Shown one piece after another: positions 3,927 to 49,300 of a DNA stretch of 64,000 nucleotides; within the stretch, counting starts at the first letter, position 1, and each line of letters begins with the position of its first letter. The translations under genes and the position numbers were made by a program. This DNA is from Lingula anatina (taxonomy: Eukaryota > Animalia > Brachiopoda), in NCBI GenBank assembly GCA_051362555.1, contig CM120645.1, positions 5,456,001-5,520,000 on the forward strand. Reading direction: 5' to 3'. The notes below the pieces were generated by a model. It saw only the letters and a program-made list of their open reading frames with translations. It did no database searches and was not told the DNA's origin.

Positions 3927-3962
<36 letters not shown>

Positions 3963-4811: not shown

Positions 4812-6673
4812 CTGGAAAAACATGAAAAATGTGGGATTAATTAAACATTTGCTATACTTTCTTTAAGCTCAAAAGGTGCATTCTGTTGGTTCTCATTTTA
4901 TTATTTTTTGTTTATATCCTTTTTTTGTGTAGATAGACGACTGTATGGTTCCAAGAATTATTAATGTACTGATATTATATACCTCAAATGACTTTACACC
5001 TCACTCAAAAAATGTTAATTGGCAAACAGTGTCATTTAAACATGAATGTATTTTTCTCTAAATTAAATAACAAATATATGGCTATCTGTGCATTAATTTC
5101 AAGTCCCTAATATTATTACGAAAGAAGTGTGAACAGAAAAAAAGGTGAATACATGCATGTATGTGTTTGATGGCGGAAAATGGGAAATTTTGTTACATGA
5201 AAAATGCATGTACTGTGTCTTAATGGCTTAAAAAATTCATCTCCAGACTGACCACATAAAACTTGAAAACGAAATGAATATAAGTCGAATCTCCAGTAAA
5301 AACACACACACTCCTACACACACTCGAACGCACGCACGCACACTGGCACAGTCACACAAACACTGTATGATACAGAAGTACCTTCTGGGACGAGGAGGCG
5401 GTATTCCTGCAGACATTGGAGTGGTTCGTGTTGTAGAATCTCTCCCCCTTCTAATACTGCAGCACTGCTTGCCATCCCTGGTGAACTGAATGGTAAAATT
5501 TACGCCTAATATTGTCGATCATCTAGGGGGTCTACCCCTGCAAAATTGTCAACACAACACATTATAGCCTCCAAACAAAAAAGAGGTAAATTCCGTACAT
5601 TCTGTTAGCACATCTAACACAATTACTGGCGCTGGAATCCATAAATCTGCCTAAATGGGTTAAAGGCAAAAATCAACACCAAATCAAAACATAACTGAAT
5701 TCTCACACCCGTATATTCATCACAAAACTTTATAAACTTACTATCAAAATTTTGTGTTATAAATCAGTAGAATTCACGTCTAAGAAGGCGGTTGCTAAGG
5801 TGTAGGTTGGGGCAAGAAGTCTCAACAGAAAACTCCTTGGTTGGGGCATACCATGGATCAAGCAGATTATCGACAAATCTTTATAAGCTCTTCTGTTAGA
5901 ACTCTTGTTCTTCAAAATTCATTAAGGCTAGATCTACATATGAAATAGCAAAAACACTTTTGTTGGAGAGTTTCTAGATAACAGTAACTCATTTGCCATA
6001 CCATTTACTTTGTTCTCGTGTGTTGGGCACTATACCAAACAGGAATAGGGAAAAAAATTGCTGTTGCAAACAACTAATTTATTTCACCAATTATTAACGT
6101 AACACGTTATCATTAAAACACATGCGCCTTATGGCTAATCCAGATACTAAAGCACATGTTCATGTTATGAGCACCTCTTCATCTATACTTCTTTTTCAAA
6201 TAGATTAAAACAACCCTCTGGAAGTCAGAGAAAATGAAATAAATAGAAAACTTAATAAACAAGCTACAACAAAAATAACTCGACTCTTGTCATTTTATTA
6301 TAAACAATAAAATGTATCAAAAGAAATGGCACTTTCCACTGATTAAAACTGAGGTAAAAGTAAAACTGTAATGATGTAATAACCATTCACCCACAAGCAT
6401 GCATTGCAGATGAATTACAATCTTCAACGTTCTTAATAAATTAAATTAAAGCCATTTTCCATGTGCTTCACATGTACAGTATCATTTCCACTTTTGCAAA
6501 TTCCATGATGAGTCATGTAAAACAGAGATTCAGTCACAGGTTTCAGTTCAAAAGTACTTTCTGATTGTATTGTTTAGTCTTACTCATAAACAATCCAATG
6601 ATAATACTTCGTACATGTAATTATTAAGTAACACTGGCTGCGAAACAAAAAAATTCCAGCAAATAACGACGGT

Positions 6674-6970
<297 letters not shown>

Positions 6971-8974: not shown

Positions 8975-9310
<336 letters not shown>

Positions 9311-20700: not shown

Positions 20701-23700
20701 CAATAGTCACTGAGAGCAGACTTGCAGTCTGCTGTTAGCAATCAGTGACAAGACGAGCACACACTTAAACCAAAAGATCTGACACATGAATAAGCTGCTG
20801 GAAAAATTAACAGGCAGTTTTCATGACAAGCTGCAGGAAAAATTAACAAGTAGTTTTTATGACTGACCTTTGCAAGTTTATTTGACCTGACAGACTGTTA
20901 ACTTTTTTATGCCAAAAAATGTTTTTCAATTAAAGTACCAGTAATGTATTTAAGAATTTGTTTTTGGTGCAATGAGCAAATTAAGCAAATACAAGTGATT
21001 GAGACTCGTATTAAACAGGAGGAATACCATAATGATACCAGTAAGTCAATTAGTGAGTGGAAATTAGTGAGTGGAAATTAAGCTGATAGAAATTGAAATA
21101 CTGTACTTTACTTTTGTAATCAATTTACCTGAACATATGAAGGAAAACATCATATACAGGATATTCATTAAAAAAAAAAAAATGGCAATGTAATTCACCA
21201 AAATTACATTACATAACAATGAAAAAAATCTCTCTTGTTTTGAATGCATTATAACTCTTAAGGCAACTGCAAAAAAAATTGAAGCAAAAAGGGCAACCCA
21301 GAGTTCAATGTGCTGCATTAAAAAGAAAAGTGCACATGCTGTTGCTGATGGCAAGAACAAATGCAGGCAACTACTTCTAATTCATGCAGGAAAAAGAAAA
21401 AAAAAACATCTGAAAGAAGGGATATTTGATTATATTCACATTCTACAGTCAGATTGATTTCCTTATTAAAATGTAACAAAAACTGAGGCATGACTCAAAG
21501 CTCTGCAGCACATTTAACCAACTTCTCATCAATCATCTTACCAAAATATCTTTTAACATTATGTTCTTTTGTTCATCGCTGAATTCTGCAAACCACACAC
21601 TGATTGTCTGAAATGACAAGAAGACGACACTTATGTAATGTAATTTTACTTGACGATTCTCATAACATTTAGTTCACCACATTTAACACTGCCATATCTC
21701 TAAAATGTACAGTAATGAATGGCACAGAGTAAAAATAACATTTTACATTGTGAAGGTGAAATTTCAGTCAGTAAACACAGTAAATGGCAACGGTCCTGAA
21801 ACATGGAAACCACTGACAGGTGACTTAGGATATGCCACTGCTACAAAACACTCATGTCTGTTTCTATCAAAATCTTTGATCAAGGGTTAGAGTTAACTGC
21901 AGATTTGTGGGTATCAGGTAAGTTAAAGTAAAAATCTTAACGTTTGAACTTTCAACCATGGCCAAAATTATTTCATCTCCCTAAGAGCGTAACAATTCAG
22001 TCATCATTTCTTCCCCTTTCATGACAGTTGCTTAAATATTTTCCAGATTTTTAGACTTGGAATTGAGATCTCAAAAACAGTTGTTTTATAGATTATAATT
22101 TCAACAGCAAATATGTATAGGGTTTCTGTAATTGGTGACAGATGTAATACTGATGCAATTTCCAGGAAATTTATCTCTTTATTCATTTCCTATATAAAGA
22201 TCTAACACACATTATTAAGGGCATTTTCACATAATATCTGGTGGTCAACATGGTGTTACAGTTTTGAGCATGTATATAAACTTATTAATCAATCTCCATC
22301 ACCAACCAATAAAGGCAGCCAAAAAATCAGAAATTATAGGGTGTCTGAGCAATTGCGTGACACAAAACCACCCATATACATACAACATGAATCTTGCCAA
22401 CAACTGATTATTCTTTTACATCAAGAGCAGCCTGTACTTCCAAGAATTCCCGGTCCAGATACCCTGAGGTTCTATCTCATAATGAAAACTAACAACCAAC
22501 GCCCCCTGGTGGCAACCAAAAGATTGCCTGAAATGCCACACAGATAATAAATCGTTGGATAAGTTCAAAAGTTCTCAAATAGCAGAAATAGAGGTTTGAC
22601 TTTTGTCATGCAAGCAAAAAAATGTATTTAAAAAAAAAAAAAAGGCTTTAAGGTTGTTGGTTAAAAGACTTTTTGTGTGATAAAACACCTTATATTTCTA
22701 CTACTTTACTTAGAAGAGATAAAAAATAAAGAGGGGGGCAATTATTTAAAAAGGGTCAAAACAAAATGTGGAATGGCCTTATAAAATATATTTAATGTCA
22801 AACAATTTGGTTTAACACACTCGAACCTAATTCAACAAGTCCCCTTTGGAAAAATGACAGAAGAAACCCACTATAGTCTTAGTATTTACCTGGCTACTGC
22901 ACTGCACCAAGGAAACATAAGAAATGTCTGACAGGCAAACAGCAGATATCTTTGAAGTAATGTTGACTTTGATGTCGGGGCATTTGAAGATTTGTTTGAA
23001 ACAGCGCTAAATCAGGAACCTTATACAACTTGACATTTCCAAATTAACATGTAAAACAAAATGTTTTCACATACTAGTATTCTAAATCAATAGTTCTAAA
23101 GTCAGACATGCAGCACGAGTGTAGGAAATGTCTTTCTGAACTCAAGTTAATTTAAGCCGGTGTCCCTGAGCGTTTCATCTGGGAAGCTTTCACTACTCAT
23201 TTCTACTGAACTTATTTTGGAAGAATTCAACTCTGTAGACTAAACAACGTGCAAGCTAAGGAACTAACATATGCATGTTTACAGCCAACTGAGTGGCTTT
23301 CTATGAAAACATAAAATGACATAAGCCTGGAAATTAAATGGATTTTCAATAGACTCCAGTTACAAAAACCTTTAATTTATACATTTCCTGATTATAATTT
23401 ACAAAACGTGGTGAAAATTAAACGAGGTTTTTCTTTTTCTTTTCCTTAGAATGAAGATGATGGTTTCAGTTAAAATGTATATATCCTTCTTAAAATATCA
23501 ACACATTCAAAATATTTCAATATTTAAATTAACAATCATGATTCTTGTTTTATCTTTTTTTTTCTCCAAATATCATTCAGAATGTGCAATATGTCTCTCA
23601 CCCCTCCTCCAAAAGAATGTCATTCTTTAGTACTAGTACATTAAAGTAACTTCTTTCACTTCTGACTCTTTGCAATGTTTCTTCAGAACAGCAAACAATA

Positions 23701-25036
23701 TGCTACTGACAACAGTCATATATTACTGACACTGTATACTAACTGGGTTTTCAAAAAGTGTACTTACATCTTTCCTCTTTTTAAACTCGAGTGGTCCCAC
23801 TTCTGCCTTTGTCTTAAGTAGGCCTGCCCTGTCCCTGTCAATACTGTTATTATCGATAATGTAACTGCTGCTATCATTGTTACTGCTACTGTCATTGTTA
23901 AAACTGCCACCACTGATACTCCTGGTCAAATCCTCTGTCTCTGCCTCGTCGTCCTGTACTTGGCAGTTACAAACACTGGGCCCAGCTTGGCTGGCCATGT
24001 GGTACAGGTTATCACAAATTCCAAGGTGAGATTTCCCCCCGGGGAGCCGCGCCCATCCCCGACTACTGGAGTAGTTGGGTAAGCTGCTGTACTTTAACGA
24101 GGACAACTCAGGTGACACTGACGGAGTTCTGATATGCATAGTGAGGAGTCCATCAAAGGAAGAGCGCCTGCCAACTTGAGAAAGAGATGGAGGAATGAGT
24201 AGGTGTTCAGTATGCTCAGCACTAGTGGTAGCAGCGGCAGCATTAAGGTCTCTACTGCCTCTGGTTGGCAAGAAGCCACTACTATCACTGTGGGCTGCAA
24301 TGCCTGGTTCAGCCAGAGCCAGATGACCTTTGACATGACCTCTGACATGACCTCTGACCTTTGTTTGGTTGATTGCCCTGTGGGGACATGATATGTTAGA
24401 TTTCTGGTCACATACACACAATAGGTCAGAGGGCACGGAGAAACTCAAAGGTAGACTGGGGTTTTCACTCAGGGCTGATTCTGGATTCAGTCTTTCAGTA
24501 TCAAGACTTTTGGAGATGGACAGTGCCTTTTTCTTCCTGGACCGGACAAACTTGGAGGGCTTGCTGTTCATCTTTGAAGCCTCTAACTGGTGAAACAATG
24601 CCCTTGCGACGCTCGGCTTCAAGCAGCTCTGTTCGTCAATCTCACTGTTTGGATAGAGCTGTGACTTACGCACTCCACTTTGCTCACCAAACTCAAAGAA
24701 TTCATCGCTGGACGAGCTGCTTTCCATCCATCCAGCATGGGATCCATTGCTCAGCCCTAAAATATCGTCTGCTGAATGTAGGGGTGAAAGGTCAACATCC
24801 ATGGGGTCATCCGTTAGGCAGCCTCCCTCTGGCATGGCTCCATCCTCGGACTGAGTCTCCCGACTGCCCTTGGCTTTTCTTGTAAACCACGCCACCTTTT
24901 CCCAGACCTTTGAACGCCCCTTGGCACGTTTTGTAGGAGGTTTTGCACTGTCTGAGTCGCTTGGGCTGAGATACCACTCCCCCAGTGATCCTGCTGCCCC
25001 CGCCCCAGGGGAACTTTCACTGGGGCCACCCTCCAT
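14732..25036 (-). CDS. F-box/WD40 repeat protein (FBXW7/beta-TrCP/Met30-like class), ~858 aa
   Basis: Phase-consistent exons 25036-23768, 21607-21542, 19992-19848, 19534-19374, 18501-18411, 18087-18023, 17639-17514, 17071-16982, 16671-16583, 16005-15927, 15536-15285 and 14875-14732. They encode a disordered N-terminus, a D-domain-like helix (WFAEFSDEQKNIML), an F-box (LPSNLALYVMSFLDPETLCQASKVCRKW) and seven WD40 repeats (GH..V.CLQFD..IVSGS.DKT.K.W). Confidence 0.92.
18813..19369. mobile_element. PIF/Harbinger-type MITE, 557 bp, ~155-bp TIRs, TTA TSD
   Basis: GAGCGCATTCTCAA...TTGAGAATGCGCTC with near-perfect long inverted repeats; TTA at 18810-18812 and 19370-19372. Confidence 0.92.
22499..22514 (-). 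promoter_or_regulatory. CTCF-like motif in an F-box gene intron
   Basis: Reverse complement GCCACCAGGGGGCG fits the CTCF core consensus and stands out in AT-rich surroundings. Confidence 0.5.
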
Positions 25037-25792
25037 ATCAAAATCTAAAATAATAACAATAATAATAATAATAAAATAAAATTTAAATTCTTTCACTTTA
25101 TGACAAGGTTAACTCTGGTGCAATTTCTATTACGATTAATTATCTACATATTAAAGGCATGCTATCCACCTTTGGAAATGTCTTAAATTCAAATTTTCTG
25201 TCTTCAAATCCTACAAAGCTACTTACTGTACTAACTTAATCTTTCCTAATTTATCCCTTTAACACAATAATACCCCTCAAATAACAGGCCTGCTGTCACT
25301 AGCTCATGAAACACATAGGAGGACATGGAATACTAAAGGTAAGGGCAAACAAATAGAACTAAATTTATTACTTGAAAATGGTATAAACATTGAATCTAAG
25401 TGCAGGGACAGACTGAGAAATGATTTGTGAGAGGGAGAAAATTACTTTCTAGATTTTCAAAAGGAAAATTAGATTTGGCAGCAAAAGCCTGGATAGGATA
25501 CCTTAAACAATGATAGACTGCCAAAAAGAAAATATGAAATAAGACTTTTATTAATATATATCTAATTTCCTGTGTTTCAAGAACTTCTGATTGGGATTAT
25601 TATTGAATTATATGATTCAGCCAATCACCAAAATAATGATAATGGTAATAATCAGTTAGGACTATCCCTTTTGCTATTACTATTACTGTAAATAAACAGA
25701 TGGAACTAATATCTGAGCACATCAATTGCAAATAAGCATATATAAGAAATGAATCATTTTGGTTTAAATTTCTCCAGCTATTCTCTTAACTC

Positions 25793-29991: not shown

Positions 29992-31585
29992 ATGGAAAAA
30001 GCGTTGGAAAGACAGCTAGATGAAACGTAAGTGACAAGTTAACAAGTCAAATACCAAAGTATATGAAAGTGCTTGCCTGTTCTACAAACGGAAGCCAAGA
30101 TCAACGTAAAGATCGATGCAAACATAAGTTTGTCTGCAATTATAAATCGCCCCTCCCCCTAGCTACTACTACATGTAGTTACTACTGCACATACTTAGCA
30201 TTGGGCTATTATAGTATTAATATTGTTATAGTACTATTAGTAGGAAACCATGGGCCGCCGTAGTGATGGATACATAAATAGCACAACCTCAACAAATGAT
30301 GATCAACAAAATCAACAAGTCATTAAATACGTTTATGAAATTGCTGGTACAACATGAATAATTATTCGAACACAACACAAATTAGTTCAGGCAGTTCTCA
30401 TGAATGAGTTCAGGGGAATAGGGGGTCCACCTTGCCTCTTGTGAGGCTTTGCTGTGTTCAAAGAACAGTGCAATGAAACACTTAAATCATTTAAAAACAA
30501 GCAAGCACCTTAGAAAAAAATCAGTATGCTGGTCAAATTTCATTGATGTCTTTTGGGGGCATTTTAGGGTTTTATTTCAGATGAAGATGACTTTCTTTAT
30601 TCCCTTCTAGGATGAACAACCCAGGAGTTGTTGGAGTGCTGTGTGCAGATAAGCAAGGGCTTTGTTTGGGAGGTAAATGATGTATAAGTATTCAAGATAT
30701 GTGAATAGAAAAATCAACCTTATTGGGTATATATATATTCAGCATGTCATATAGCTGTCATATTTATTCCCAGTTATGAAATAATTTTGCTAGGATATTT
30801 TTATATCAAAATAAACATGGTTAAATGGAATGTCAAATTAATTGTGATATGTATATATATATATATATATATCATATTCAGATTTTAGTATACAATTTTT
30901 TTCTCAGTTGGAAAAGAGTTCCATTAGGGTATGTAGAAAATCAATAAAAAGGGGGGATGGGATGGTCTTTTTAAATTTTTTTCTCCTTATTGATGGTGTT
31001 ATTCTGACTTCCAGCAAGAGGTACTGGTGAGCGTCAGACCTGTGGGTTGATCACCAGCTTGGCAGAGACTGCCCAGAAACTGTACCCAGATGAGTCTTCC
31101 TCCCCAGTCATTAGTATAGAGACAGACAATATGTGAGTTAGTCACTGACTCTTTATATGTGTTTATCTCTACTTTTTACTTCAACACACACACACACAAA
31201 CATACACAGACACACACACACACACACACACACACAGGTTCATCATTTGGACATCTTCTCACTTTGGGCTTTACATGCTTGTTTAAAGAAAAGCGAGTCA
31301 GAATACAGTAAAACTGCTGACATATAAGGAGTAGAAAAACTGCAATATTTTGATGTTTTTCTAGACAGATTCCCTCATTTCCCGATAGAGATGCTCTATA
31401 GTCCGGGATATAGAAACATTGGAAGTATTTAATAATTTAAATACTAAGTGCTGATTGATGAAAAATTACTGCTTTATTGTACTAGTCAGATTTCACATTT
31501 TGTGTTCCTTTCTTTTGGACCTAGGCAAATCCTGATCAAGTCTAAAGAGGGAATAACCACAGCTGTGTATAAGAGCTCAACGTGA
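29992..31585 (+). CDS. LAMTOR5: Ragulator complex protein LAMTOR5 (HBXIP), 91 aa; absent from the ORF track
   Basis: Exons 29992-30026, 30611-30672, 31015-31132 and 31525-31585 total 276 nt and give [35 protein letters not shown]...PVISIETDNMQILIKSKEGITTAVYKSST, recognisably LAMTOR5. Confidence 0.95.
31184..31236. repeat. (CA)n microsatellite
   Basis: Directly visible. Confidence 0.9.
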
Positions 31586-32538
31586 CAACAGCTGAAAAGA
31601 ATGTATTTGAAAAACAATGAGATGACACCAGTAACAATGATATGAAGAACAGTAATGGTCATATCCATTGTTGGGAGTCACGTACCCAAGGAATTATAAA
31701 ATTTCAACAAATTTAGTGAATCAACCAGCTGTGTATGTGCTTTACATGAAATGATGCTTTGTAAAAAGGAGTGTCAGGAACAAATACCATATTGTCATAT
31801 ATTGACAGCATTTGGAAGCTGGAGTCAACGTCTAGAAAAAGTTACTGCATTAACTTTGTTTACAAATAACTGAAGTGACTTTGGCGCAATATGTGGTTGG
31901 GAACTTTATGTAGAGGTTTATCAATTGAAATATTAAATGAAATTGAGGGAAGTTAAATAAAACTTAAAATATTTACTTTGAGGGTTTTCTGTCACTCATT
32001 AGATGTGCATGTTGTATTAAGACCATGTAGATTGCGCTAGTTGTGACAGAACACATCCTTTTGTATTAGAAGTATGCCATAGGTTTCCTAAACATTCCAC
32101 AATAAGAGACAGATGTAATAGGCTTCTTGGAGTTTTACAGAATTAAAAGTCGCATATCAGTCTGTGCATATATGAACATAATTGGCATCATTCTTATATT
32201 TTAAAAATGAAGTGAAACTGATGCTGTACAGAGTAACATTAATGCAATGATAATGCATAAGTGTAGGGAACGAGCCAGAGCTGACTGATAAGTTTCTCTC
32301 AATGCTTTGTATGAAAGCCTGTTGAACTGTTCTAAAGCAGATTACATTTTACAGTAATATGACAACTAATTTCCACATGATCAAAATTAATTGCTTTTTA
32401 CATGGAGTGTAGCCAAGCAAATAAAAAAGTGGTCTTTAACTTTTGTAACTCTGCATCTGTTTAAACAACTGTCCTTGTTCAGGCAATTGGAAAGTAGAAC
32501 CGGTCACAGATTGGTTATTGTTTATAATTCCATGTGTT

Positions 32539-32820
32539 GGATTTCCCCAGGGTTTTCCATTAATTCACTTTCGTTTTCACATATTTTGATTCCTATTAAT
32601 GATTTCAGGAAGCACATGAAATTCAAATACAGTTTTAACTTTAAATTCCTTTCCACTAGAAAAAAAAACATTTGAAATGCTTATTTCTGCATCGCGAAGT
32701 ACTATTTGCCTTTGGCAAAATAAACACAAACTAGAAAATGGAAATGAAAAGTTTCCAAAACGAAGTCTTTCACCTTCTTTCGTCACTCTCTCTCGGCCGC
32801 GTGTGCGCCATCTGGTAGCG
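32539..32820 (+). promoter_or_regulatory. Candidate immune-responsive promoter: tandem kB-like sites, IRF/ISRE-like element and CTCF-like motif
   Basis: GGATTTCCCC (32539-32548) and AGGGTTTTCC (32549-32558) abut TTCACTTTCGTTTTC (reverse complement GAAAACGAAAGTGAA). GGAAATGAAAAGTTTCC is at 32740 and GCGCCATCTGGTAG at ~32805. Confidence 0.5.
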
Positions 32821-32973
32821 ACCTACATTTACCTTCAAAAGGCAAGTAACCTACAACAAATTTGACCTACCCCAGTACCTGTGTTGTTGACAGTATAAGA
32901 CAGCGTCCTTTATCACTTCCCGGAGAATAAATTATCAGCTGGGTTACGGGATGTAGCCCGAAAAGAGATCATA

Positions 32974-35900
32974 ATGAGTCTAACTCTGCATTCAAACGGT
33001 AACAACGATGTGAATCCGAACCGAGGAGGCCACTTTAGTATGTCTGACTCCATCGAAACCTTGGGGTACACGGCTTTGAAGGCAATAGCCAGCAAGTTAG
33101 CCATTAACCCCATCACTGGATCAGGATGGCAGGATTTAGCAGACAAATTGGGATTTTCATATGGAGAAATTTTGCAGCTGGAGAATATGAACTGCGACGC
33201 GGCTACGATGGCGACTAATATGCTAAAAGATTGGTTGAACCGTCGCGGTCGCAGCGCGACTATTGGGGTGTTGGAGCAATACTTGATTCTACTGGGACGC
33301 GAGGACGTTTTACAAGAACTTCATAACAGACTCAGAGGTGAGAGGAAATGAATTTAGCAAAATTTTATAATGTTACACGAGTTTACGAATCTTACACGAA
33401 TTTACGAATCTCTTTTAACGAGGAAGAGAAATGAGTTTGACATAATAATTAGGGTTGCCCTCTTTGATTTATGATTTTAATCATCAATCTGAATAAAAAG
33501 GCCTACCTGTTATGTTATTAATCAGATTGATAATGTTTATTCTACTAGTTTTTTTTTTCTAGTAGGTGTTTACTTTATTGACAATAAATACTTTTGTCAC
33601 TTACAACAGCGTTTGGAATGAGGAACTAGACAGAACTTGCTGATCTTTCAAAAATTTTGAGAAGGGGTCCACGTGATATTTTAATATAATTATATATATC
33701 ATGAATATTTTCTTTCATGTACTGCACGTGAAGGAAAAATGTTTTATTTTTTAAATTGCTTATGGGTAGCAACTGGAAAAAAGCAAACATTGTGAGATTA
33801 TGAAATAATGCCGAACTGATAAATACACTTCTTGTACAACATCAGAACACTAACTGTCAGTTAAAAAAGAAGGGGTCTCCCCTCCCCCCCTTTTTTTTCC
33901 TGGTGAAACTTAAGAATGTGTTGCAATTAAATCAGGAGCATTTACTCTTTATTTATTGACTCAAATCTGACTTTTTCCATTGTAAAGAACATTTTTGTGT
34001 TGGGGCTAATTCCACTTTTTTAAAACCAGGGAATTCAGAGCCCAACTTGCCCTACAATGTCTCATATCCTGTTATGAACATCATAAAACTAGGCTGTAAT
34101 GTTAGTGGTTATAAGCATGCCCCATTCATATAGATATAATTATGTGGTATTTATTTCCTTGTATAAAGTATACCAGTCATCATTGTTTGAATAGAAGGAC
34201 AAGAAGATGAGTTATATGGGCCTTTCAAGTGTGGTCAGTGATATATGACCAGAGCTTTAATGTGCCCACATCAATATTTAGTTTGAATATTTTTAGATAT
34301 TACTAAATGGGCTCTGACTTCATAACTGGCTTTACTTGTTAATATTTTTATTAAGTTACAATAGTTTGTAATAAAAAGGTTCTTAGTTAAATTTGGCTTA
34401 AAGTAAATGGCTGGGCATCAGTGTAATTTCATATGACCCAGACTGTTGTGAAGGACCATATATACTGATATCCTATTCTTTGTTGCTCATAATGTAATCA
34501 GGAATTTCCCATTATGTTCTTCAAATTCTTGAGGAATGATTTATGTATAGTGATTGTGGTTAAGGGATGGGACAGTATTGATACTGATAGTGGTCTCTCA
34601 TGTTTTTAAGCCAGCATTAAAATGTCTTGCTTTGTATCATACTTTTTGTGTGTTTTTAATTTGTTTCAATTAATGGATATAATCTTTTGATACGTGTTAA
34701 TTTTAAATAGCTATTAAGTTACAATAAGAAATCTACTTGTAGTAGATTAAGCAGTCTATGAATTTTGAACTGTGACAGTATTTTCTTTATTTATATTATG
34801 GATATTTCAATTTACATGTACCTAGGCAACATCACTAGGCATCCTGTAATGCTATGTGATGTTTTGGTTTTTTGCTACTATAATATACTTGTAGATATAC
34901 TATAATAACATACAGCATGTTGTCAGTTTGCAAAATGTATTACTTTAATGATTTTGATACATTTAATAATTTTCATTTCAAAGGTGGTTTCATCTAAATT
35001 GTTACAAATATATCATTTTTTGTATCTGATATGGCTCTATGCTACTTTTATATTCAGCATTTAGCTACATATTTAACCTGTGATATGAATCACCAGTTTT
35101 TATTTCTTTTATTAAATAATTTCTCATAAGTTTTTTTTTTTTATCTGTAGCTCCATTCAACTTGTTGATCAAACTTGTGTGGGAGGGTAAACCTGACCTC
35201 AATCTGCGAGCGGAGGCTACCAGTGAGATGAGCCTGGTGGAGGCAGTGCGGGACATGTTGAAGACGCTTGGTCTCTCTTATGAACAAGTGGAATTTAATG
35301 GAAATTGGGAGAGTAAGGCGAGAGAATTTGTGGTGAGTGTCATAGAGGGATATACCATAATTATGATAATTTACTGTCAAACAAAGAGAGTGAGAGCTAT
35401 AGGAAGCAAAATATTAAGTTGATTTTTTTCTAGAGACTTCAAAAATCGTCTACTAATTGCCACGTAATACCTTATCCCAAACCATTAAAAAAATTACAAC
35501 CTATTTAATAGTACGCTCTTAGGTTTTTGAGTTCTAATTTTCAACATATGAGCCTGTACATGGCTCTTATGTAGGTGGGACTTGTGAATTTCACTTGTAA
35601 TAATAGAAAATTTTAACTCAAAGTGTTTTTTAAGTCCAATACAGTTCTTGCTTAATTCTCTCACATACTTTAAGTATTTATCTGAACATTTGTTTCACTC
35701 CACAGGGTAGAGAACTTGTCCTAAAAGTAGTGGGGGACCCTCTTGGTACATCAATGTTACCTAAACAGTCTTCCCAGGATTCAGGCCATGACTCTCAGGG
35801 TGGAGAGTCCCCTCAGCAATCTCCACGTGAAGATATAGAGCAGGTGAGTCAAGGTACAGGGTCACAACTTGATGCTCAGGGTGCCGTGGTGCCTGGGGAA

Positions 35901-38900
35901 ACACAGGGCGCAGGGAGACCATTTGGTTCAGCTCTGACGATGAATCAAGGGGTTGAAGAAACTCAGGACTCTAGTTTCTTGCCAGGCACAAAAAATGTTG
36001 ATTTGGGACTAAATGGTGTGATGAATCTCGGAACAATGGAAGGGGGCACTTCATATAAGTCTCCATTACAAGTGAGCAGTAGCACAAACACCCAGCAGTT
36101 ACAGGGTGCAAGTTTGGATACCGTCTATGGTACAAGTAACAATATATCTCCCACTTCTATGTTCACTCTGACTGCCAGTGTCAACAACAGTGCTGTTCAT
36201 GACACACGGCATGTAACGGGGAAAATGAGTGAAAGTTTTCAGGGTGTTGAACCCATGGAACTGGACATTACGACTCCAAAGACGGAGCAGACATTATTGT
36301 TTCAGAGTGAGATGCAGGACAGGGGTGCTCTTGGTCAAGGGGATCCTGTGTCTGGGGATGGTGAGATCACACCAACAGAGAAAAGCAGAAGTCGCAGTAG
36401 CAGTGTTCAAGTTGAAAGTTTCAGTGAAATATTTCGTGATCAAAGACTGCGAAGTAACAGCGTCCCAGAGATTGAACCAATCAGAATGAATATTCCAGTA
36501 GATGCTTTAAACATTCCTCCTTGCAGCAGAACAGATACATCTTTCAACAATAAATCATCTGTTTCTTCCTTAAACAATGTATCAAACTCTTTAAATAATG
36601 TAGAGATGACCACTTCAGTCAATGTTTTTCCTGCCACGGAGAAAGTGTCATGGAGTTTAGATGAAGAGATGGAGGATGTCCAGACCTTGGTTAAACAAGG
36701 CATCAAAGATCAGCACAACTGTCAATATTGTAAACCATTTGCACAGCATTATAAATCCAAAACTGGGCTGTTCAAGTCTACTCAACAAAGTAGCAGATTC
36801 AGGAGCAACAGCAGCAGCGTCTCGTTTGACAACGACACCATTTACGAAAAATCTGACATTATGCACTCACTAAGTACGCCTGGGTTGAAAGCTGATGGTC
36901 GTGGATCACCTGATGGCAAAGACAAGAGCACCTGCTTAAAAACCTGCCTATGCTATCCAGGCTCAAATTCAGCACATTCATCTCCAGATCCAGAGGGCAG
37001 GGTTCCTTCTTTACCGGCAAGGAGGAAAAGTCCACCTCTGCAGGATAGAGCTGCTGCTGCTCCTTTACCAGTGAAGCAACGGAGCCAGCCTTATGTACCA
37101 GAGAGGAAAAGGAGCCCTCCATTCCTGGAGAAAAAAAGGAGTGCCCCTTTGATGGAAACGGAATTTAGTCCTCCTCTGACTGAGAGAAAAATGACTTCTC
37201 CCAGGAGTGAGCAGTGCATAGCTGGCATGACTGGGGCACATAGGGGAGTAATGAGGACGGACAGTAGACCAAGTGACTCGGAGTCCAACATCATGGCACA
37301 CATGGATCTGGACAATCAGAGTGTTAATTCGGAAATGTTGGAGGATCCGAGTCCGGAGTCTTTGTACATCACTATCCTGCCTGGGTGGCACCCTCTGCTG
37401 GAGAATAATGGGAAAAAGGTGAGATGATTATATAATATTAAAATTTTACTACACTAGGTAATATTGTTAAAATTGAATGAAATTTTTGGTCATTGGACAG
37501 CATGTTAGATAGTTTTGTACCTTTGGTAATTTTATATCAAATACTTGATAAAGAAATACACACAAGCTAAGACAAAGTGAAATGTAGCTGAGTCAGACAA
37601 TTGTTTTTTTACCCTTTTGAAATGTGTGATTATGGTTATTGCATAGTATTCTTATTTTTTCTTTTTTTTTAGTTTCAATTTTGTGTGTTTTTTTTTTTTT
37701 TTTTTAAGCTAAAGAAATGATTGATTGATATGATATGATTGAAAACGAAATGCAATTATTTTGCCAGGTGTTTGCTGTTATGAAGCCATATTTGGGAAAA
37801 GATGGCTACTACATCATTCGGTCTCTTGATCATGGAAAGAAAGGAGTCACAGTGACGTAAGTAAAAAACACTTTTATGACATAATATTTCCATTGATATT
37901 CAGGTTCCCTTTTCTGTCTTTCTCTCTCGCTCCTTTTTCAGATGTTTCAAATGCATGCATAGGATTAAATTGTTACTTTTAGTACTTTGAAATTATTTAA
38001 AATTTGAAAGTTTAAAAACAGATTCAAATTGTAGACTAAGATATTGATAGGCACATGCATTCGGGTTTTGATTTATCTGGGGAGTTGAGTGTCATAAAAA
38101 TCACCTCTGTCAAAAACTGATTGTTAAGAGCCTAAGAGCATGAGGAAATAAATGAGAAACCAGGCACATTAGTTACAGATGCTATCATCTTGGGATTTTC
38201 CTTATCTGCATTTAACAAGTCTTTAAATAATGCATAATTTGTACTATTTTAGTAGAGATGTAGGTTGCTAGTAATTGCTTAGTGTATTTGGACATAGTTG
38301 GCCGAATAACATTTTCCAAACATTCCAGCGAAGAATTTCTTCAGCTGTGTACTTTATTCCTTCATAGTTACAGTTGATAAAATTTTCAAGCAACAGTTAA
38401 AAAATAGTAGTACCAATCCAGTTCAATATTTTACAATTTTTTTCAACTTCTGAATAATTTATGAATAAAGCACGTATGGGTAACTGTACATCCTAACTGG
38501 CATGCATGTTTGTAGTGTGTAATGGCTTCAACGTTAAGTTAATTAATTTATTATGCAGGTATAGGTTGTGTGATATTATTGTTGACAATTTCTTTAACAG
38601 GCACCAGGGACAACTGAAACACTTCAAAATCCACATGACAGAGGAAAGGGGTACGCTGTTCTTCTATTTCTACCGGGATGGTTTCCAAGCCACCTCTATT
38701 CAGGACCTCATCAAGTACTATCACACCCATGACCTAAGTGCGCAGATGACATCCTCCCACCCTGAAGGTGGCGCCACAGATGGCCATGTGGCTTCACTGG
38801 CCACGTTCAGTGATGACTCTGCTGGAGCATCGTCATTATGTGTAGAGGTTTCCATGGCGATGGACTCCCAGTCTGCATCAGCGTCCCAGCCAGTGAGGTA

Positions 38901-38988
38901 CGAAGGGAGTAAACATATCAGGCTGCGAGCACCAGTGGCTCCAGTGCCCATCACAATTAATGATTCTGACATTATGGCTAAGATCTGA
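32974..38988 (+). CDS. Death-domain + Raf-type RBD-like + SH2 adaptor protein, ~911 aa
   Basis: Phase-consistent exons 32974-33337, 35151-35332, 35706-37418, 37768-37856 and 38601-38988 total 2736 nt. Death domain GWQDLADKLGFSYGEILQLE..MLKDW..ATIGVLEQYLILLGREDVLQEL; RBD-like MSLVEAVRDMLKTLGL..NWESKAREFVGRELVL; SH2 PGWH..DGYYIIRS..GQLKHFKI..TSIQDLIKYYHTH. Confidence 0.88.
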
Positions 38989-39489
38989 TTTTCAGATCTA
39001 AAAAATATTTGATTAAGTCTGAACATATATATTGCTCATTGAAAAGAGATTTTGATTTTGTTGTATACTCAGTTAACTGAGACCATATGCTTGCCTATCA
39101 ATCTAAAAATTTTAAAAGATTTTGATAATTTTAACAATCATACAATAGTGGGATTCAAGTGAACTTACCTTACTGTAATAGAGAAAGTGTCAAGATTCAC
39201 CTACCACTCACTGCGTTTTGTATCCTTGTATATGGGTATATTTATAACACATGTACAGAGATATATTATCATGGTAATTTCATAAAACAACAATACATCG
39301 TATAACATTCCATTAAGATAAATGCTTGCAAGGAGATTCATGTCATTTTATATGTTGTTTCTGTACAAAAGTGGTATGTTTCTGTGTATCAATAAGTGTA
39401 TTTTTCTATATCCAAAAAAAAAAAAAAGAAAAGAGGGTAAAAAAATCCAAGCTTCAGACATAAACCCTGGCTCAGCTAAAATTGTACAA

Positions 39490-39492
<3 letters not shown>

Positions 39493-39566
<74 letters not shown>
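39493..39566. repeat. (AT)n microsatellite
   Basis: Directly visible. Confidence 0.97.
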
Positions 39567-39568
<2 letters not shown>

Positions 39569-40564
39569 GCCTAGTGGAGAAATATACAGTACCCCAGTTT
39601 GACCTATCAAATAACAGATTTTTTGTCCTGTGACCTGAAATTTTGAATAGGTTTGTGCACATATCCGGTATCCATTGTGTGGTTATTTTCAAGCTTTTCT
39701 CTACAGAGTAGCCACTCAAAACATATTTTGCCTTTTCTAACAGCGTAATAGGGCATGGGTTTTTCCCCCGAACTTCAGTTTGTTTTGGTTCCTCCAACAG
39801 GAAATTGAAATACTTTTGGCTTGTGTTCTAGGCATAATGGATGGAATTCATTAATGGATTCTTAAAGTATTCTTCGGAAATTTGGTGTTACCTGGGTCAA
39901 GATAAAGCCAAGATCAAGGTTGCCTGAGCACTTGAATGAGAAACTCGAGTATACTGTACTTGCCCATATGTATGAAACTAAAATATGATATCACTTTTCT
40001 CTTACCCGTTAGGTAGGATATTTTCCTGGTCTATTGATATTGTATGTAATTATTATTATTTTTAAAATAAAAGTTTATCTTTTACAGACAAATTTAAGTC
40101 GGACTTCAAATGAGCCATGATGTTATTCAAAAATTAAATCTTAGAGAGCACGATCACAAGTTGATGTCTGCAGGTGTGATATGTTTCAACTGTAGAGTTT
40201 TAATTAGGATATTTTTAACATTCACTATGCATAAAATTTTAATGAAATTGTAATTTATAATAAAATTGTGTACAAATAACAGTTGTACAATAACTGAATA
40301 AGTGCAACTTTAAAATTAAAAATTAAATCTATTATCTGACACAAAATGCACATTTTTACCTTCTGGGTATTGTTTTGGAATCCAAAAGAAGATTTATAAT
40401 CAATTTATTGTCAATTTATCAATTATTTATTATCACTGACACAGAGAGTAAATATCAATGAGAATGATGCTTATAATCATCTCCATTCACTTGTTGATAT
40501 TTATTAAGTTTCTTCACATTTTTGCAGACTTTTTAACATTCCTTGACAAGTGCATCTGTGTTTG

Positions 40565-45300: not shown

Positions 45301-46345
45301 AAAAATTTTGAGATATTAATAGAAAAAATAATTTATATTTCTTTTAAATGTTTCAGTGGCACCTGATAATCAGAAACATCAGTCTTGCAAAACTGTTGCG
45401 CATTATCACAATAATTATCAATATTGCTTTTTCACAAGCCTGGGAAATGTAATTCTAAATTACAGTAACTTCTAAAAGCATATCTTAATTTCTTACAGGC
45501 TTGTGTGGGCACACTTTCAAGAAGTTTTAGTGGAAATCATCCCCAAGTTGCAAGACCAGCTTGTATTTTTAGGTCCCAGGTGGGCCAATTTAAGAGGGGT
45601 ATGCAAAAGGCACCCTTGGATTTTTGATCCACTTCGTCTTGTAAACCATATTTGCTCATATATTCACTTTCGTGTAAAATCTCCTGTACACAATGAACTT
45701 GCTGGGAAGAATTCATAAATATATCTAAAATCCAAAATTCACTCTCACTTTGATCTCAATCTGCTTGTTATCTTTACCTTTTGATCTTATTGTTAATCAA
45801 GTATTCTGCTGCGGGGAAAAATATGGGGGAAGGATACATTGCTTAATGAATAAAACAAGCAAAAACATGATATCTGTTTCTCCCATTATAATTTCAAGGG
45901 CACTGCTTCTCTCATCTGATTTTCTTATTAAAATTTCATGGGTATGTTAGGTCACGCCACCTTCCTCAAGGTCTTGAATGAAAATCTTATTTGTACATCA
46001 ACAGAAGTAGATGCCACCAACACTGAACAGTAACTCTTATTTTTTCCTTCAAGTATTACACATGTCATAGCCATAAGTTCTGTCTCCAGACTTGGACTAA
46101 GGAGTCACCATGTTTCGGTTGAGACACTGAATGCTTCATTGTGTTAGATGAGAGATGTTTCAACACAATGAACCAAACATTCTGCATCAACATGACAAAG
46201 TTCAAGGACTGCTTCCAACAACTGCCTGTCCCGTAGCTGGCATGAGGTAAACAATTAACTCCCGTCTCACTTGTGCTGACAAGCTTCTTGTAATAATATT
46301 TTGTTCATATTATTGGGCTCCTATTACACAGTAATTGTAACTGAC

Positions 46346-49300
46346 CTACGGCATTGTGGCATCTCTTGTGACGCTGACCCACCTGGAAATGAGATTGTAA
46401 TTGACATTACAAGGTATAAAGTATGTCTTAATTTCAGTAAGGAATGTACTCATAGTGTGTGTATGCATGTGTGTGTGCGTGCATGTGTGTGTGCGTGCAT
46501 GTGTGTGCAGTTCCCTTTGGAGTTATTTACACTTTCATACCAACTCACACTTGTAACAAATCATAAACTGACTAGATTCACCAATAATTAAAAACTGCAC
46601 TTTTCTTTTGTACAGTATGTTCTTTTATTATGAGGTCTGTGTACTCACTTGTCTCTGGCAGATGGCGCCTCTGTTCTGAAGGTCATTGGTTGTCTTCCCT
46701 GATGTGTTATTGAGAACAGCAAACTGGGCTCTACACCTTCAAAGTACTGGAAATAATAAAACAAGGAGTGAAACATGTATATATCTATATAACAGAAAGC
46801 TCAATCTTATCCTTAAAGGTACAAGAAAGAGAAGAATGAGAATCATCAAAGAACTGATAATAACTGAACAAGGAGTGGTGCCATAATCTAGATCTACTGA
46901 TACAGACAGTCACTGTATTTATCTTAATATTGTTAGACACATATCGTTTGTCAAATTGTAAACACTATATATAATAAAAAAGAAATCTCTAGTCCTTCAA
47001 ACTACAAACAAAATATAAAAACTGACTGATCAAAATGCAGTTCATTTTTTTAAATTGACAATAAGTTTTGTTTTAAATAGTGCTGCCATTCAAATGGCAA
47101 GTAACTTTGATGTGCAGATTGATAAAATATCAAAGAAAGTTAGTATAGGGCTTTTCTGTAACACCTGTCAAAAGCATATTACCTGCAGTTACAAAAATCT
47201 TTCAGTGGCTTTATCTGCTTTGTCATATGAACACTCCTAAATACCTTAGACTGTAACACTTTATATAAATGTATAATGTGGTTAATGAAACTATGTATGA
47301 AAGTCTGCATTGCAGCTTATCACTCACTGATGGGAATTTGATTGCAGTTTTCTCATGTACCTTATAAACTCATCACAATGTTATGTCTGCAGACAGCATT
47401 AAGGTGCATGATGTTAACTGTGCAGAATCGTGTATTACATGACAATGGCATTTTTATGATTGCTATAACTGTGTTGTGTATGTATTAATATTCCTTGTCT
47501 ACATGAGGTAACCAGGGGCATATAAGAGGAGTATTTAGAGCTGATAAATACCCCATTGGGCAATCCATAAATGGTGGCCACTCCAATTTTCCAAAATAAT
47601 TTGCATATCCAGCTCTCCCCCTCCCCCAAACTTCACAAAAAAGAGAGATAGACCCTCATAACCATGATATAAAAAATTATTTCAATTTCCACAATTATTC
47701 TTTGGCTGTTGGGTTGGCATGGGTAAACATTCCCTCTGAAAACAAACTCATTTTCTTGATATTCTGGATCCACTAGAGAAATTTTACAAATAAAACAGAC
47801 TACAGATTGTTTGAGTGCTCATTTTGTTGCAGTTACTCAAACAGAAATAGTTATGGTCTAAAATGACATACAAAAGAGGGCACTTAATGAAATGTTTGCA
47901 TGATAAACTGCAAAGCTGAGTCTCAGCTGAGTATCAGTTTAAAGGTACATAAATATAAGGTATAAAATTGAAAAAAAAAGATCTTGCTTTCAAATTGTCT
48001 TTTTAATAAGTTGACTAAAATTCATTTTATTTTACAGCCTTCTGCTTTAAGAAAAAACGCTTTCTACAGCAATAGCTTCTTATGTCTCTAAACTGAGATA
48101 AAAATATTGCAAAACAATAAAATTCAGACCATGACTATTCACCTTATGACAAAAACATAAAAACATTAAGAAAAACTAAATCTTCAGATAAATGACATTT
48201 TAAGTTATTAAATTTAAACAAAGAAAAAAACATTAAAACTAATGTACTAATGAGCCCTCGATTTTTCCAAATGCACCCATATAACCCACGTATCAGACAG
48301 GACCTGGTGCGTTTTATGACTGTCCTATGTCTAACAACGATAAATCCAGTTCATAGATCTAGATAGTAAATGACACAAGTAAGGTTCACACCGTACCTCC
48401 TAGTGCCTCCCTGTACTTACAGTATGTCAACACAGAAACATAATCCCATAGAAACCCTCATTTTGTTTTTAATCTTAGACCACATCACACATTGGACTAA
48501 CAGAATAGCAGATTGAATATGGCCGCCCCATGAATGGTTGTAGAGTAATCCCTGCAGGGAATCTATTCAGTGTCTATAAGGGCGCAATGCAGCAAGCTTG
48601 TAAGTGGGTCTCCATATTTAATCTGCCGATCTGTTAATTCGCTGTTGTGAATGTGGCCTTAAGTTCAATATAAAGCACCTGGTCTGATTATGATGTTACC
48701 TATATTATATCTGATCTATGTAAGACTGTTGTGAGTGTGCCTTTCTGTTGTGTAATTATATAATCATTGCTCTTACCTCGGTGGCCTTTTCTACATCATA
48801 ACCCAGGAGTGGGGTGCTCTCTACAGCTGCCATGTCCTGCAACACATACAAAAAACATGCATATATTATATCAGTCAAAAAATTCTCACTCAAAATTTGA
48901 GATCTCTCTCCTAGATTTGCCAAAGAGTATCCAATGTTAAAAAACACTTTTTTTAGAATGAGAACCCTTTAATCCCTAATGGCAAGAAAAACTGATGCAA
49001 TCAGTACAAAATTAATACAATAATTATCTATAATTCTCTTTACTTTTTTGTCAATTTTCTAATCTTTGTCTTTAACTCTCCATCTATCTTAGAGAAACAG
49101 GTCAGATTTAAAGGCACTTTTGAAATTTCCCTTGATGCTTAATGTCATCTTGACATCATACAATTATCTTAAACACGGAATCCAAACGTGCTTTCCTAAT
49201 CCTTTTTTTTTTAAGTTCTGAGTTCCCAATTAAAATTATATCAAATACTGCCTTTCCAAAAAACCTACCCCTAAGGAAATTTACAGGTTAAAGTCAAATT

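What the first reader, a model, noticed from the sequence alone, without database searches (positions are those of the whole stretch)
32974..38988. Unusual adaptor architecture: MyD88-like death domain + Raf-type Ras-binding-like domain + disordered linker + SH2, with no TIR and no kinase
Seen: five phase-consistent exons giving ~911 aa. Exon 1 matches the MyD88/IRAK/Tube death-domain pattern (W..LA..LGF.Y.EI.QLE..L..W..A.+G.L...L..LGR.DVL.EL) and exons 4-5 an SH2 with the phosphotyrosine-binding Arg retained (GYYIIRS). Established: death domains assemble Myddosome-type complexes, RBDs bind GTP-loaded Ras-family GTPases, and SH2 domains bind pTyr. I know no characterised protein with this combination. 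Inference: it could recruit IRAK/Pelle-type kinases to tyrosine-phosphorylated receptors and Ras/Rap instead of to TLR TIR domains, which would be an alternative entry into NF-kB signalling.
Basis: partly seen in the sequence, partly recalled or inferred. Interest (0 to 1): 0.9.

Follow-up and report, generated by a model that had tools for sequence, protein, structure and literature searches.

The report
Undescribed invertebrate Death-RBD-SH2 adaptor family
This is a real, spliced and expressed lamp-shell gene from an old invertebrate family that joins a MyD88-type death domain, a Raf-like module lacking the Ras-binding arginine and an SH2 domain, and it likely lets tyrosine phosphorylation tune innate-immune signalling without the usual TIR link.

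Summary
Five GT-AG exons give a 911-residue frame, RNA reads support all four joints, and the product matches an uncharacterised Lingula anatina protein at 909 of 911 residues. It is no orphan: 14 of 38 scanned relatives (amphioxus, acorn worms, a scallop, unnamed assemblies) carry Death then SH2, with a conserved segment behind the death domain whose profile retrieves Raf and RGS14 Ras-binding domains. A 25-sequence model folds all three domains. The Ras-contact arginine (Raf R89) is absent in 15 of 15 members and is leucine here, the change that abolishes Raf-Ras binding. MyD88's IRAK4-recruiting K95 is basic in 1 of 16, and the intermediate domain is missing. The SH2 phosphotyrosine arginine is kept here but in only 8 of 15. 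Other MyD88 marks (acidic E52, R98, a YxxI site) and a kappaB-plus-IRF-type cluster upstream point to immunity. Best reading, untested: a phosphotyrosine-gated adaptor that docks on MyD88-type assemblies and more likely dampens than drives NF-kB. p75NTR/NRADD-type partners remain a serious rival. I found no paper describing the family.

The parts
32974..33337 (+). Coding exon 1 (residues 1-121): death domain; ends in a phase-1 intron 13 codons after R109
33160..33171 (+). Y63-x-x-I66, aligned with the MyD88 Y58 hemi-ITAM (YxxI); Tyr kept in only 2 of 15 members
   Evidence: PMC13344425 section 8
35151..35332 (+). Coding exon 2 (residues 122-182): most of the Raf-type RBD-like beta-grasp domain
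35267..35269 (+). Leu161, the position of Raf R89 (Ras contact); a variant seen in two divergent RNA runs is synonymous
35706..37418 (+). Coding exon 3 (residues 183-753): last RBD strand, about 535-residue Ser/Thr/Pro-rich linker predicted disordered (35748-37349), start of SH2
37768..37856 (+). Coding exon 4 (residues 754-782): SH2 betaB strand with Arg771 (37819-37821)
38601..38988 (+). Coding exon 5 (residues 783-911): SH2 His790 and Lys792, helix B, a 53-residue low-confidence insert, the closing strand (residues 886-897), stop
32539..32578 (.). Upstream cluster in an untranscribed gap: two kappaB/Dorsal-type 9-mers (32539-32547 minus, 32550-32558 plus) and an IRF-type GAAANNGAAANNGAA (32564-32578 minus); function untested, pattern chosen after seeing it
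32890..32973 (+). Approximate 5' untranslated region (RNA cover begins near 32890; no cover 32446-32855)
38989..40200 (+). Probable 3' untranslated region; + strand reads continue with gaps at repeats, possibly beyond 41500; end not fixed

Best explanation
The gene encodes a cytosolic Death-RBD-like-linker-SH2 protein of a family shared by brachiopods, amphioxus, acorn worms and molluscs, and it likely works as a phosphotyrosine-gated adaptor that docks on MyD88-type death-domain assemblies and would more probably dampen or redirect NF-kB signalling than drive it. Shown: the gene, the three folds, the family, the residue pattern. Inferred, step by step: (1) NF-kB and IRF factors raise its expression after challenge; (2) the SH2 domain (Arg771, His790, Lys792) binds a phosphotyrosine on a receptor tail or on MyD88's own YxxI site, which a Src kinase phosphorylates and SYK's SH2 domains read in amphioxus; (3) the death domain, brought near on a long flexible tether, co-assembles with MyD88/IRAK death domains through the kept MyD88-type residues; (4) lacking K95 and the intermediate domain, and with a beta-grasp domain fixed where that region would lie, it passes poorly to IRAK4 and caps or diverts the assembly, somewhat like the short MyD88 splice form; (5) the RBD-like domain is Raf-related but has probably lost canonical Ras binding and serves as a rigid extension or a surface for another partner.
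For: MyD88-type marks: acid at the E52 column in 14 of 16 family domains, 4 of 4 MyD88 domains, 1 of 28 other death domains; Arg at the R98 column in 16 of 16, 4 of 4, and basic in 5 of 28. In a 48-row tree the family and MyD88 domains fall on one side of a 93/91 branch. A phase-1 intron closes the domain at R+13 in Lingula and a mollusc-type member and at R+12 in jellyfish MyD88, read from read-through products. K95 column basic in 1 of 16 against 3 of 4 MyD88; K95 is tied to IRAK4 recruitment and E52/Y58 to IRAK1 (PMC2852602, figure legend). The spacing from R109 to the RBD tryptophan is 65-76 residues in 15 of 15, with helix 6 running straight into strand 1 in the model. SH2 pocket residues vary together: betaD6 basic in 6 of 8 members with the betaB5 arginine and 1 of 7 without. 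The best SH2 profile matches are PLC-gamma and SYK. Amphioxus SYK binds MyD88's phosphorylated hemi-ITAM and inhibits NF-kB (PMC13344425, abstract and section 8). An IRF core with two kappaB-type sites within 50 bases occurs in 0 of 300 block shuffles; both kappaB-type 9-mers are unchanged in a divergent DNA run while 3 neighbouring bases differ. Of the 24 coding variants displayed, 2 of 16 in folded domains and 5 of 8 outside them change the residue.
Against: NRADD (67 bits) outranks MyD88 (54) and p75NTR (51.5) in the profile search, and by fold RAIDD, ankyrin and MyD88 are tied at Z 11.1, 10.9 and 10.8. The tree holds no p75NTR, NRADD, IRAK or Tube rows, has 93 columns for 48 rows, its 93/91 branch is below the tool's star, and its four MyD88 rows were themselves found by likeness to this protein. 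One of the four is an unnamed record grouped by its near identity to a named MyD88. Seven of 15 members lack the phosphotyrosine arginine (Trp in 4, His or Tyr in 3), so step 2 cannot hold family-wide. The intron differs from MyD88's by one codon and phase-1 ends may be common. The promoter patterns were picked after seeing the site; a single kappaB-type site beside an IRF core arose in 29 of 300 shuffles, real IRF cores (16) far exceed the shuffled mean (5.9), and the third GAA of the IRF-type site is changed in the divergent run. The variant table showed 40 of 346 rows. The direction (dampening) rests on one residue and an analogy.
Confidence: 0.42

Rival explanations
1. The death domain partners p75NTR/NRADD-type or RIPK/RAIDD-type death domains, so the protein links a receptor tyrosine kinase (for example Trk, at its PLC-gamma site) to neurotrophin, TNF-receptor or cell-death signalling, not to the Toll pathway.
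For: NRADD is the top solved match for both the single domain (E 1.5e-9) and the family profile (E 1.5e-17; p75NTR 7e-13; RIPK1 9e-12). The SH2 domain is closest to PLC-gamma SH2. Trk with a PLC docking tyrosine and p75NTR exist in molluscs and annelids (PMC2772990, passages). Engineered DED-SH2 chimeras redirect tyrosine-kinase signals to apoptosis (as cited in PMC2575513, passage).
Against: The NRADD row has glycine at the E52 column where the family is acidic. The MyD88 match extends over more of the profile (positions 26-136 against 30-121). The kappaB/IRF-type cluster fits immunity better, though it does not exclude cell-death roles.
Confidence: 0.25
2. One reading: an activating three-way scaffold that binds GTP-Ras/Rap, phosphotyrosine receptors and IRAK4/Pelle, giving a TIR-free route into NF-kB.
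For: The RBD fold has been kept in 15 of 15 members across protostomes and deuterostomes. Three members have histidine at the R89 column, as the second RBD of RGS14 does (H406 named a key residue in PMC3689692, passage). MyD88-type marks are present and the Lingula SH2 pocket is intact.
Against: No arginine at the R89 column in 15 of 15, leucine in Lingula, and a basic residue at the K84 column in 1 of 15; the Ras interface depends on basic residues there (PMC7895934, passages). Net charge of the segment is zero or negative in 13 of 15. K95 is not kept. H406A had no effect in the assay of PMC3689692.
Confidence: 0.15
3. The SH2 domain works without phosphotyrosine (a folded peptide-binding or structural module, as in TYK2, RIN2 or SH2D5), so the family is a constitutive scaffold and the arginine in Lingula is a remnant.
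For: Two well-supported clades (100/99 and 100/100) have replaced the arginine yet keep the fold and the invariant His, Gly and Leu. Histidine and tryptophan are the same replacements seen in the three human exceptions (PMC7530234, passage).
Against: Arg and a basic betaD6 persist together in 6 of 8 members spread over brachiopod, amphioxus and acorn-worm lineages, which chance retention would hardly give.
Confidence: 0.13
4. The architecture is an artefact: two neighbouring genes joined by a gene model.
For: No single read spans both ends.
Against: All joints are read in RNA, exon 3 is one 571-codon open frame that holds the end of the RBD and the start of the SH2 domain, and 14 relatives have the same order, two with linkers of 29 and 33 residues.
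Confidence: 0.01

Closest known systems
MyD88 (death domain - intermediate domain - TIR) and its inhibitory short splice form
   Same: N-terminal death domain with acidic E52 column, GR.D motif, YxxI at Y58 (in Lingula), closed by a phase-1 intron; no enzyme domain.
   Different: No TIR, no intermediate domain, K95 not kept; an RBD-like domain, a long linker and an SH2 domain instead. [quoted passage not shown]
NRADD / p75NTR death domains
   Same: Highest profile score among solved death domains.
   Different: Those are membrane proteins; no transmembrane or receptor domain was detected here, and they carry neither SH2 nor RBD.
Raf and RGS12/14 Ras-binding domains (Pfam PF02196)
   Same: Same strand-strand-helix-strand-helix-strand fold; keeps Raf's Trp and Gly near the end.
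   Different: Lacks R89 and K84; under the Pfam cut-off; no C1, kinase, RGS or GoLoco domain.
Grb7/10/14 and RIN adaptors (Ras-association plus SH2)
   Same: A ubiquitin-like Ras-module fold and an SH2 domain in one enzyme-free chain; Grb7 SH2 tops the Foldseek list.
   Different: Their module is of the RA type with PH/BPS or VPS9 domains (and recall); none has a death domain.
Death-like + TRADD-N + variable C-terminus proteins of Amphimedon
   Same: Death-superfamily domain in front, SH2 among the possible C-terminal domains (PMC8195603, section 10).
   Different: Middle domain there is TRADD-N, a lineage-specific sponge expansion; here it is RBD-like, and Pfam TRADD-like_N matched none of the 15 segments.
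Amphioxus SYK acting on MyD88
   Same: An SH2-based link from phosphotyrosine to the MyD88 death domain that lowers NF-kB (PMC13344425).
   Different: SYK is a kinase with two SH2 domains and no death domain.

Membership tests
MyD88 | N-terminal death domain | tested here: met
   Pfam Death 55.4 bits, cut-off 22.6; model residues 26-121 at pLDDT about 90
MyD88 | C-terminal TIR domain | tested here: not met
   No TIR in P0001 nor in the 14 relatives with Death and SH2
MyD88 | Intermediate domain after the death domain | tested here: not met
   RBD strand 1 follows helix 6 within 3 residues; constant spacing in 15 of 15
MyD88 | Death domain of the MyD88 subtype rather than p75NTR/NRADD or IRAK | tested here: inconclusive
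   Residues and tree favour MyD88; profile ranks NRADD first; folds tied; no p75NTR or IRAK rows in the tree
MyD88 | Recruits IRAK4 | not testable with these tools
   Only a residue proxy: K95 column basic in 1 of 16
Raf-type RBD (PF02196) | Beta-grasp fold homologous to Raf/RGS14 RBD | tested here: met
   37 of 43 rows, and all of the first 37, are Raf or RGS14 chains, best E 1.8e-5; Foldseek RGS14 RBD E 1.6e-4; Lingula scores 23.6 bits on a profile built without it, best of 500 shuffles 5.0
Raf-type RBD (PF02196) | Pfam gathering score | tested here: not met
   No hit for P0001; 3 of 38 relatives hit under the cut-off; 5 of 15 segments match, best E 2.5e-5
Ras effector RBD | Basic Ras-contact residues (Raf R89, K84) | tested here: not met
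   Arg in 0 of 15 at R89 (Leu161 here), basic in 1 of 15 at K84; five rows align poorly at this place
Ras effector RBD | GTP-dependent binding to a Ras-family GTPase | not testable with these tools
   Needs a pull-down
SH2 domain | SH2 fold | tested here: met
   Z 13.8, rmsd 2.0 over 108 residues to PLC-gamma1; Foldseek E 3e-6
SH2 domain | betaB5 arginine plus a basic alphaA2 or betaD6 | tested here: met
   Arg771, His790, Lys792 in Lingula; family-wide only 8 of 15 keep the arginine
SH2 domain | Binds phosphotyrosine peptides | not testable with these tools
   Needs a binding assay
Grb7/10/14 | RA-PH-BPS-SH2 order | tested here: not met
   No PH, BPS or RA match on P0001; a death domain stands in front
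IRAK/Pelle/Tube kinases | Kinase or pseudokinase domain behind the death domain | tested here: not met
   None found
Death-like + TRADD-N proteins | TRADD-N domain after the death domain | tested here: not met
   Segment matches RBD, not TRADD-like_N, in Pfam and folds as a beta-grasp

The most novel reading that the evidence does not exclude
The last common ancestor of protostomes and deuterostomes had a TIR-free adaptor that wired tyrosine-kinase signalling directly onto the Myddosome, reading phosphotyrosine with an SH2 domain and co-assembling through a MyD88-type death domain fused to a disarmed Raf module; brachiopods, amphioxus, acorn worms and molluscs keep it, some lineages have switched off its phosphotyrosine sensing, and vertebrates and insects appear to lack it.
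Probability: 0.35. Interest if true: 0.82.

Novelty: new variant of a known kind. Interest (0 to 1): 0.64.

Why it matters
Known MyD88-type adaptors are reached through TIR domains, and among the proteins and papers I could search no natural protein joins a death domain, a Raf-type module and an SH2 domain. This family has kept that order from brachiopods to amphioxus, with several copies in acorn worms and amphioxus, yet every named record is 'uncharacterized' or named by one domain only. If it acts on the Myddosome it adds an ancestral layer of control to Toll signalling that flies and mammals do not show, and amphioxus already offers the reagents to test it. The family also gives a natural series of SH2 domains with and without the phosphotyrosine arginine and of RBD folds without the Ras arginine.

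Tried and rejected
Single-sequence structure prediction was useless (mean pLDDT 33); the 25-row alignment rescued it. Word-index protein searches returned only the protein itself or 3 known members, so they give no census. The ESM Atlas gave no feature hit; its structure rows were all under its naming bar. No genome is held, so paralogues and a same-species MyD88, IRAK4 or Ras were not available. The complex predictor was not available, so a planned test of the SH2 domain docking back on the Death-RBD unit was not run; nothing is claimed from it. The linker has no significant match to 16 relatives (1 hit, E 0.62). A TRAF6-type motif (PREDIE, residue 222) occurs, but such motifs were found in 7 of 18 sequences at unrelated places, so I give it no weight. 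The Pfam TcpQ hit on exon 2 (E 0.012, under cut-off) and a PDB hit at E 0.16 were rejected as chance. The alternative acceptor row at 38602 is one changed letter in divergent animals, not a second splice form. The spliced + strand transcript just upstream is a separate gene: it has its own stop and a gap in cover. No indexed holder was on record as RNA; that blank is no evidence. Vertebrate, insect, nematode or cnidarian members with the full order were not among the named hits, but only 45 representatives were returned, 5 full-length members are unnamed, and 6 of the 44 hits were not scanned with Pfam, so absence is not shown. IRAK4 is not among the 60 of 187 rows shown; that is not a test against it. 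Literature: searches listed nothing describing the family (0 papers for six joined terms such as death-SH2); the supplements of PMC2575513 hold no SH2 or RBD entry (5 files). The survey of Lingula immunity (PMID 29278680) and two further papers sought by recalled ids were not held, and bioRxiv supplements were closed; any of these could list the architecture. Earlier findings of this scan gave nothing on this family.


Full report
Gene model. Four RNA runs from three studies show all four joints: 1813 bases skipped (3 of 4 runs), 373 (4 of 4), 349 (4 of 4) and 744 (3 of 4, with a second row from one changed letter at the acceptor). Two more runs read from exon 1 into exon 2, and cover starts near 32890 after an empty gap. 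Exon 1 is identical to the start of P0001, named by NCBI as uncharacterized protein LOC106162389 of Lingula anatina; the whole product differs from it at 2 of 911 residues. Of the 24 coding variants among the 40 rows displayed (346 in all), 2 of 16 in folded domains and 5 of 8 outside change the residue.

Domains. Death is clear (Pfam E 7e-15). SH2 falls just under Pfam's cut-off (20.8 of 21 bits) but matches PLC-gamma SH2 at E 5e-6. The middle domain gives no RBD hit on its own. A model from a 25-row alignment has pLDDT near 90 for residues 21-195 and 731-832, a confident closing strand at about 886-897 after a low-confidence insert, and under 50 for 197-730. Fold searches give SH2 (Z 13.8, rmsd 2.0, 108 residues, PLC-gamma1), RGS14 RBD (E 1.6e-4) and death domains (RAIDD 11.1, ankyrin 10.9, MyD88 10.8).

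Family. A search of 1.84 billion representatives returned 45 proteins at E up to 0.001, the query included. Of 38 scanned with Pfam, 14 have Death followed by SH2: three from Branchiostoma, two from Glandiceps, two from Ptychodera, one from Saccoglossus, one from the scallop Argopecten and five unnamed assemblies. A further Ptychodera protein has two RBD-like segments and a partial death domain; Biomphalaria has RBD and SH2 with a weak death domain; Bulinus, Pomacea, Candidula and Lamellibrachia records are partial (these local profiles were built from 15 members and score those members by construction). Named records are 'uncharacterized', 'hypothetical' or named by one domain. The linker runs from 29 to 704 residues while the Death-RBD spacing stays within 65-76. 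A phase-1 intron 13 codons after the GR.D arginine is shared by Lingula and a mollusc-type member, judged from a read-through product, which supports common descent.

The Raf-type module. A profile of the 15 segments behind the death domain retrieves 43 solved sequences at E up to 10; the first 37 are all Raf or RGS14 chains (best E 1.8e-5, an engineered c-Raf RBD; wild type 0.003). Pfam RBD matches 5 of the 15 segments, and Lingula scores 23.6 bits on a profile built without it against at most 5.0 for 500 shuffles. But the alignment to c-Raf, numbered from the full-length chain, puts Leu161 at R89 and Asp156 at K84; the R89 column reads Arg in 0 of 15 and His in 3 (five rows align poorly there). 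R89L almost abolishes KRAS binding and the interface relies on basic residues of strand 2 and helix 1 (PMC7895934, passages). RGS14's second RBD has His at this place, and its mutation was without effect in one assay (PMC3689692, passages). I infer that canonical Ras binding is unlikely, not excluded.

The death domain. By profile NRADD ranks first (67 bits), then MyD88 (54), p75NTR (51.5) and RIPK1 (48). By residues the family looks like MyD88: acid at E52 in 14 of 16, 4 of 4 MyD88 rows and 1 of 28 others; Arg at R98 in 16 of 16 and 4 of 4, basic in 5 of 28 (numbering from the MyD88 row and the L93 primer in PMC6304784, passage). A tree groups family and MyD88 domains at 93/91 and neither shows nor rejects the family as one clade (p-AU 0.225); it lacks p75NTR, NRADD and IRAK rows. 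E52 and Y58 are tied to IRAK1 and K95 to IRAK4 (PMC2852602, figure legend). K95 is basic in 1 of 16 family rows and 3 of 4 MyD88 rows, though it is also acidic in many unrelated death domains. Lingula keeps Y63-x-x-I at MyD88's Y58, but only 2 of 15 members do. In amphioxus this YxxI site of MyD88 is phosphorylated by SRC and bound by the SH2 domains of SYK, which lowers NF-kB (PMC13344425, abstract and section 8). [quoted passage not shown]

The SH2 domain. Lingula has Arg771, His790 and Lys792, the SAP-like pattern (PMC7530234, passages). The arginine is kept in 8 of 15, replaced by Trp in a four-member clade that includes the scallop and by His or Tyr in a three-member acorn-worm clade; two changes explain this on the tree, and betaD6 is basic in 6 of 8 against 1 of 7. 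The pocket thus looks intact in the Lingula-type members and lost twice.

Upstream DNA. About 310-350 bases before the start of RNA cover lie two kappaB/Dorsal-type 9-mers and the window's only GAAANNGAAANNGAA (consensus patterns recalled). Each pattern alone is unremarkable or marginal (5 found, 5.04 expected; 1 found, reached in 8 of 100 shuffles). An IRF core with two such sites within 50 bases arose in 0 of 300 block shuffles and with one site in 29 of 300; the test is post hoc and the shuffles under-produce IRF cores. A divergent DNA run keeps both 9-mers and changes 3 neighbouring bases, one in the third GAA. This is a hint of immune induction only.

Mechanism. Shown: an expressed enzyme-free chain with a tightly spaced Death-RBD unit, a floppy tether and an SH2 domain. 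Inferred: the SH2 domain reads a phosphotyrosine on a receptor or on MyD88, the death domain joins a MyD88-type assembly, and without K95 or an intermediate domain it caps or diverts it (0.42).

Comparison and novelty. It fails membership of MyD88 (no TIR), IRAK (no kinase), Grb7 (no RA-PH-BPS) and the sponge Death-TRADD-N proteins, among which SH2 is one listed C-terminal domain (PMC8195603, section 10). Engineered DED-SH2 adaptors that reroute kinase signals are cited in PMC2575513 (passage). Six searches of the open literature listed no description of the family; I read passages with SH2 terms in PMC5978004 and PMC8662601 and found none there either. The Lingula immune survey was not held and domain databases may list the Death-SH2 pair automatically. 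Verdict: a real, conserved, apparently undescribed adaptor family built from known domains; new variant of a known kind; interest 0.64.

Noticed in passing
window 31008-32445 (+): A separate spliced, expressed gene ends just upstream (joint 31132 to 31525, stop soon after); a short Cys/His-rich frame at 30422-30607 may belong to it but had no Pfam hit.
   Followed up: partly
window 6677-6970 and 8978-9310 (-): Two tandem dynein light chain genes with identical coding frames over the Pfam domain.
   Followed up: no
window 2254-4836 (-): Ankyrin-repeat and SOCS-box gene.
   Followed up: no
window 15096-25108 (-): F-box and WD40 gene, with a long low-complexity frame at 23726-25108 that may be its first exon.
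   Followed up: no
window about 45500-64000 (-): RhoGEF and PH exons behind a 1034-codon low-complexity frame, probably an FGD-type exchange factor (type recalled).
   Followed up: no
window 262-939 (-): DDE_3 transposase remnant.
   Followed up: no
proteins P0003/P0046, P0007/P0015, P0005/P0011: Family members in amphioxus and acorn worms have consecutive accession numbers or share a contig length, suggesting tandem or linked paralogues; P0015 has two RBD-like segments.
   Followed up: partly
RNA runs X18-X20, DNA run X10: Animals under the same species label differ from the window by roughly 5 in 100 letters, which may mark a cryptic species.
   Followed up: no
proteins P0030 and P0045: A sponge two-SH2 protein and an unnamed protein with an N-terminal SH2 carry SH2 domains similar to the family's but no death domain; possible source lineage of this SH2.
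   Followed up: partly
ESM Atlas row 8: A chordate cluster with CARD, death, SH2 and SOCS-box domains; probably joined models of neighbouring CRADD and SOCS2 genes (recalled, not tested).
   Followed up: no
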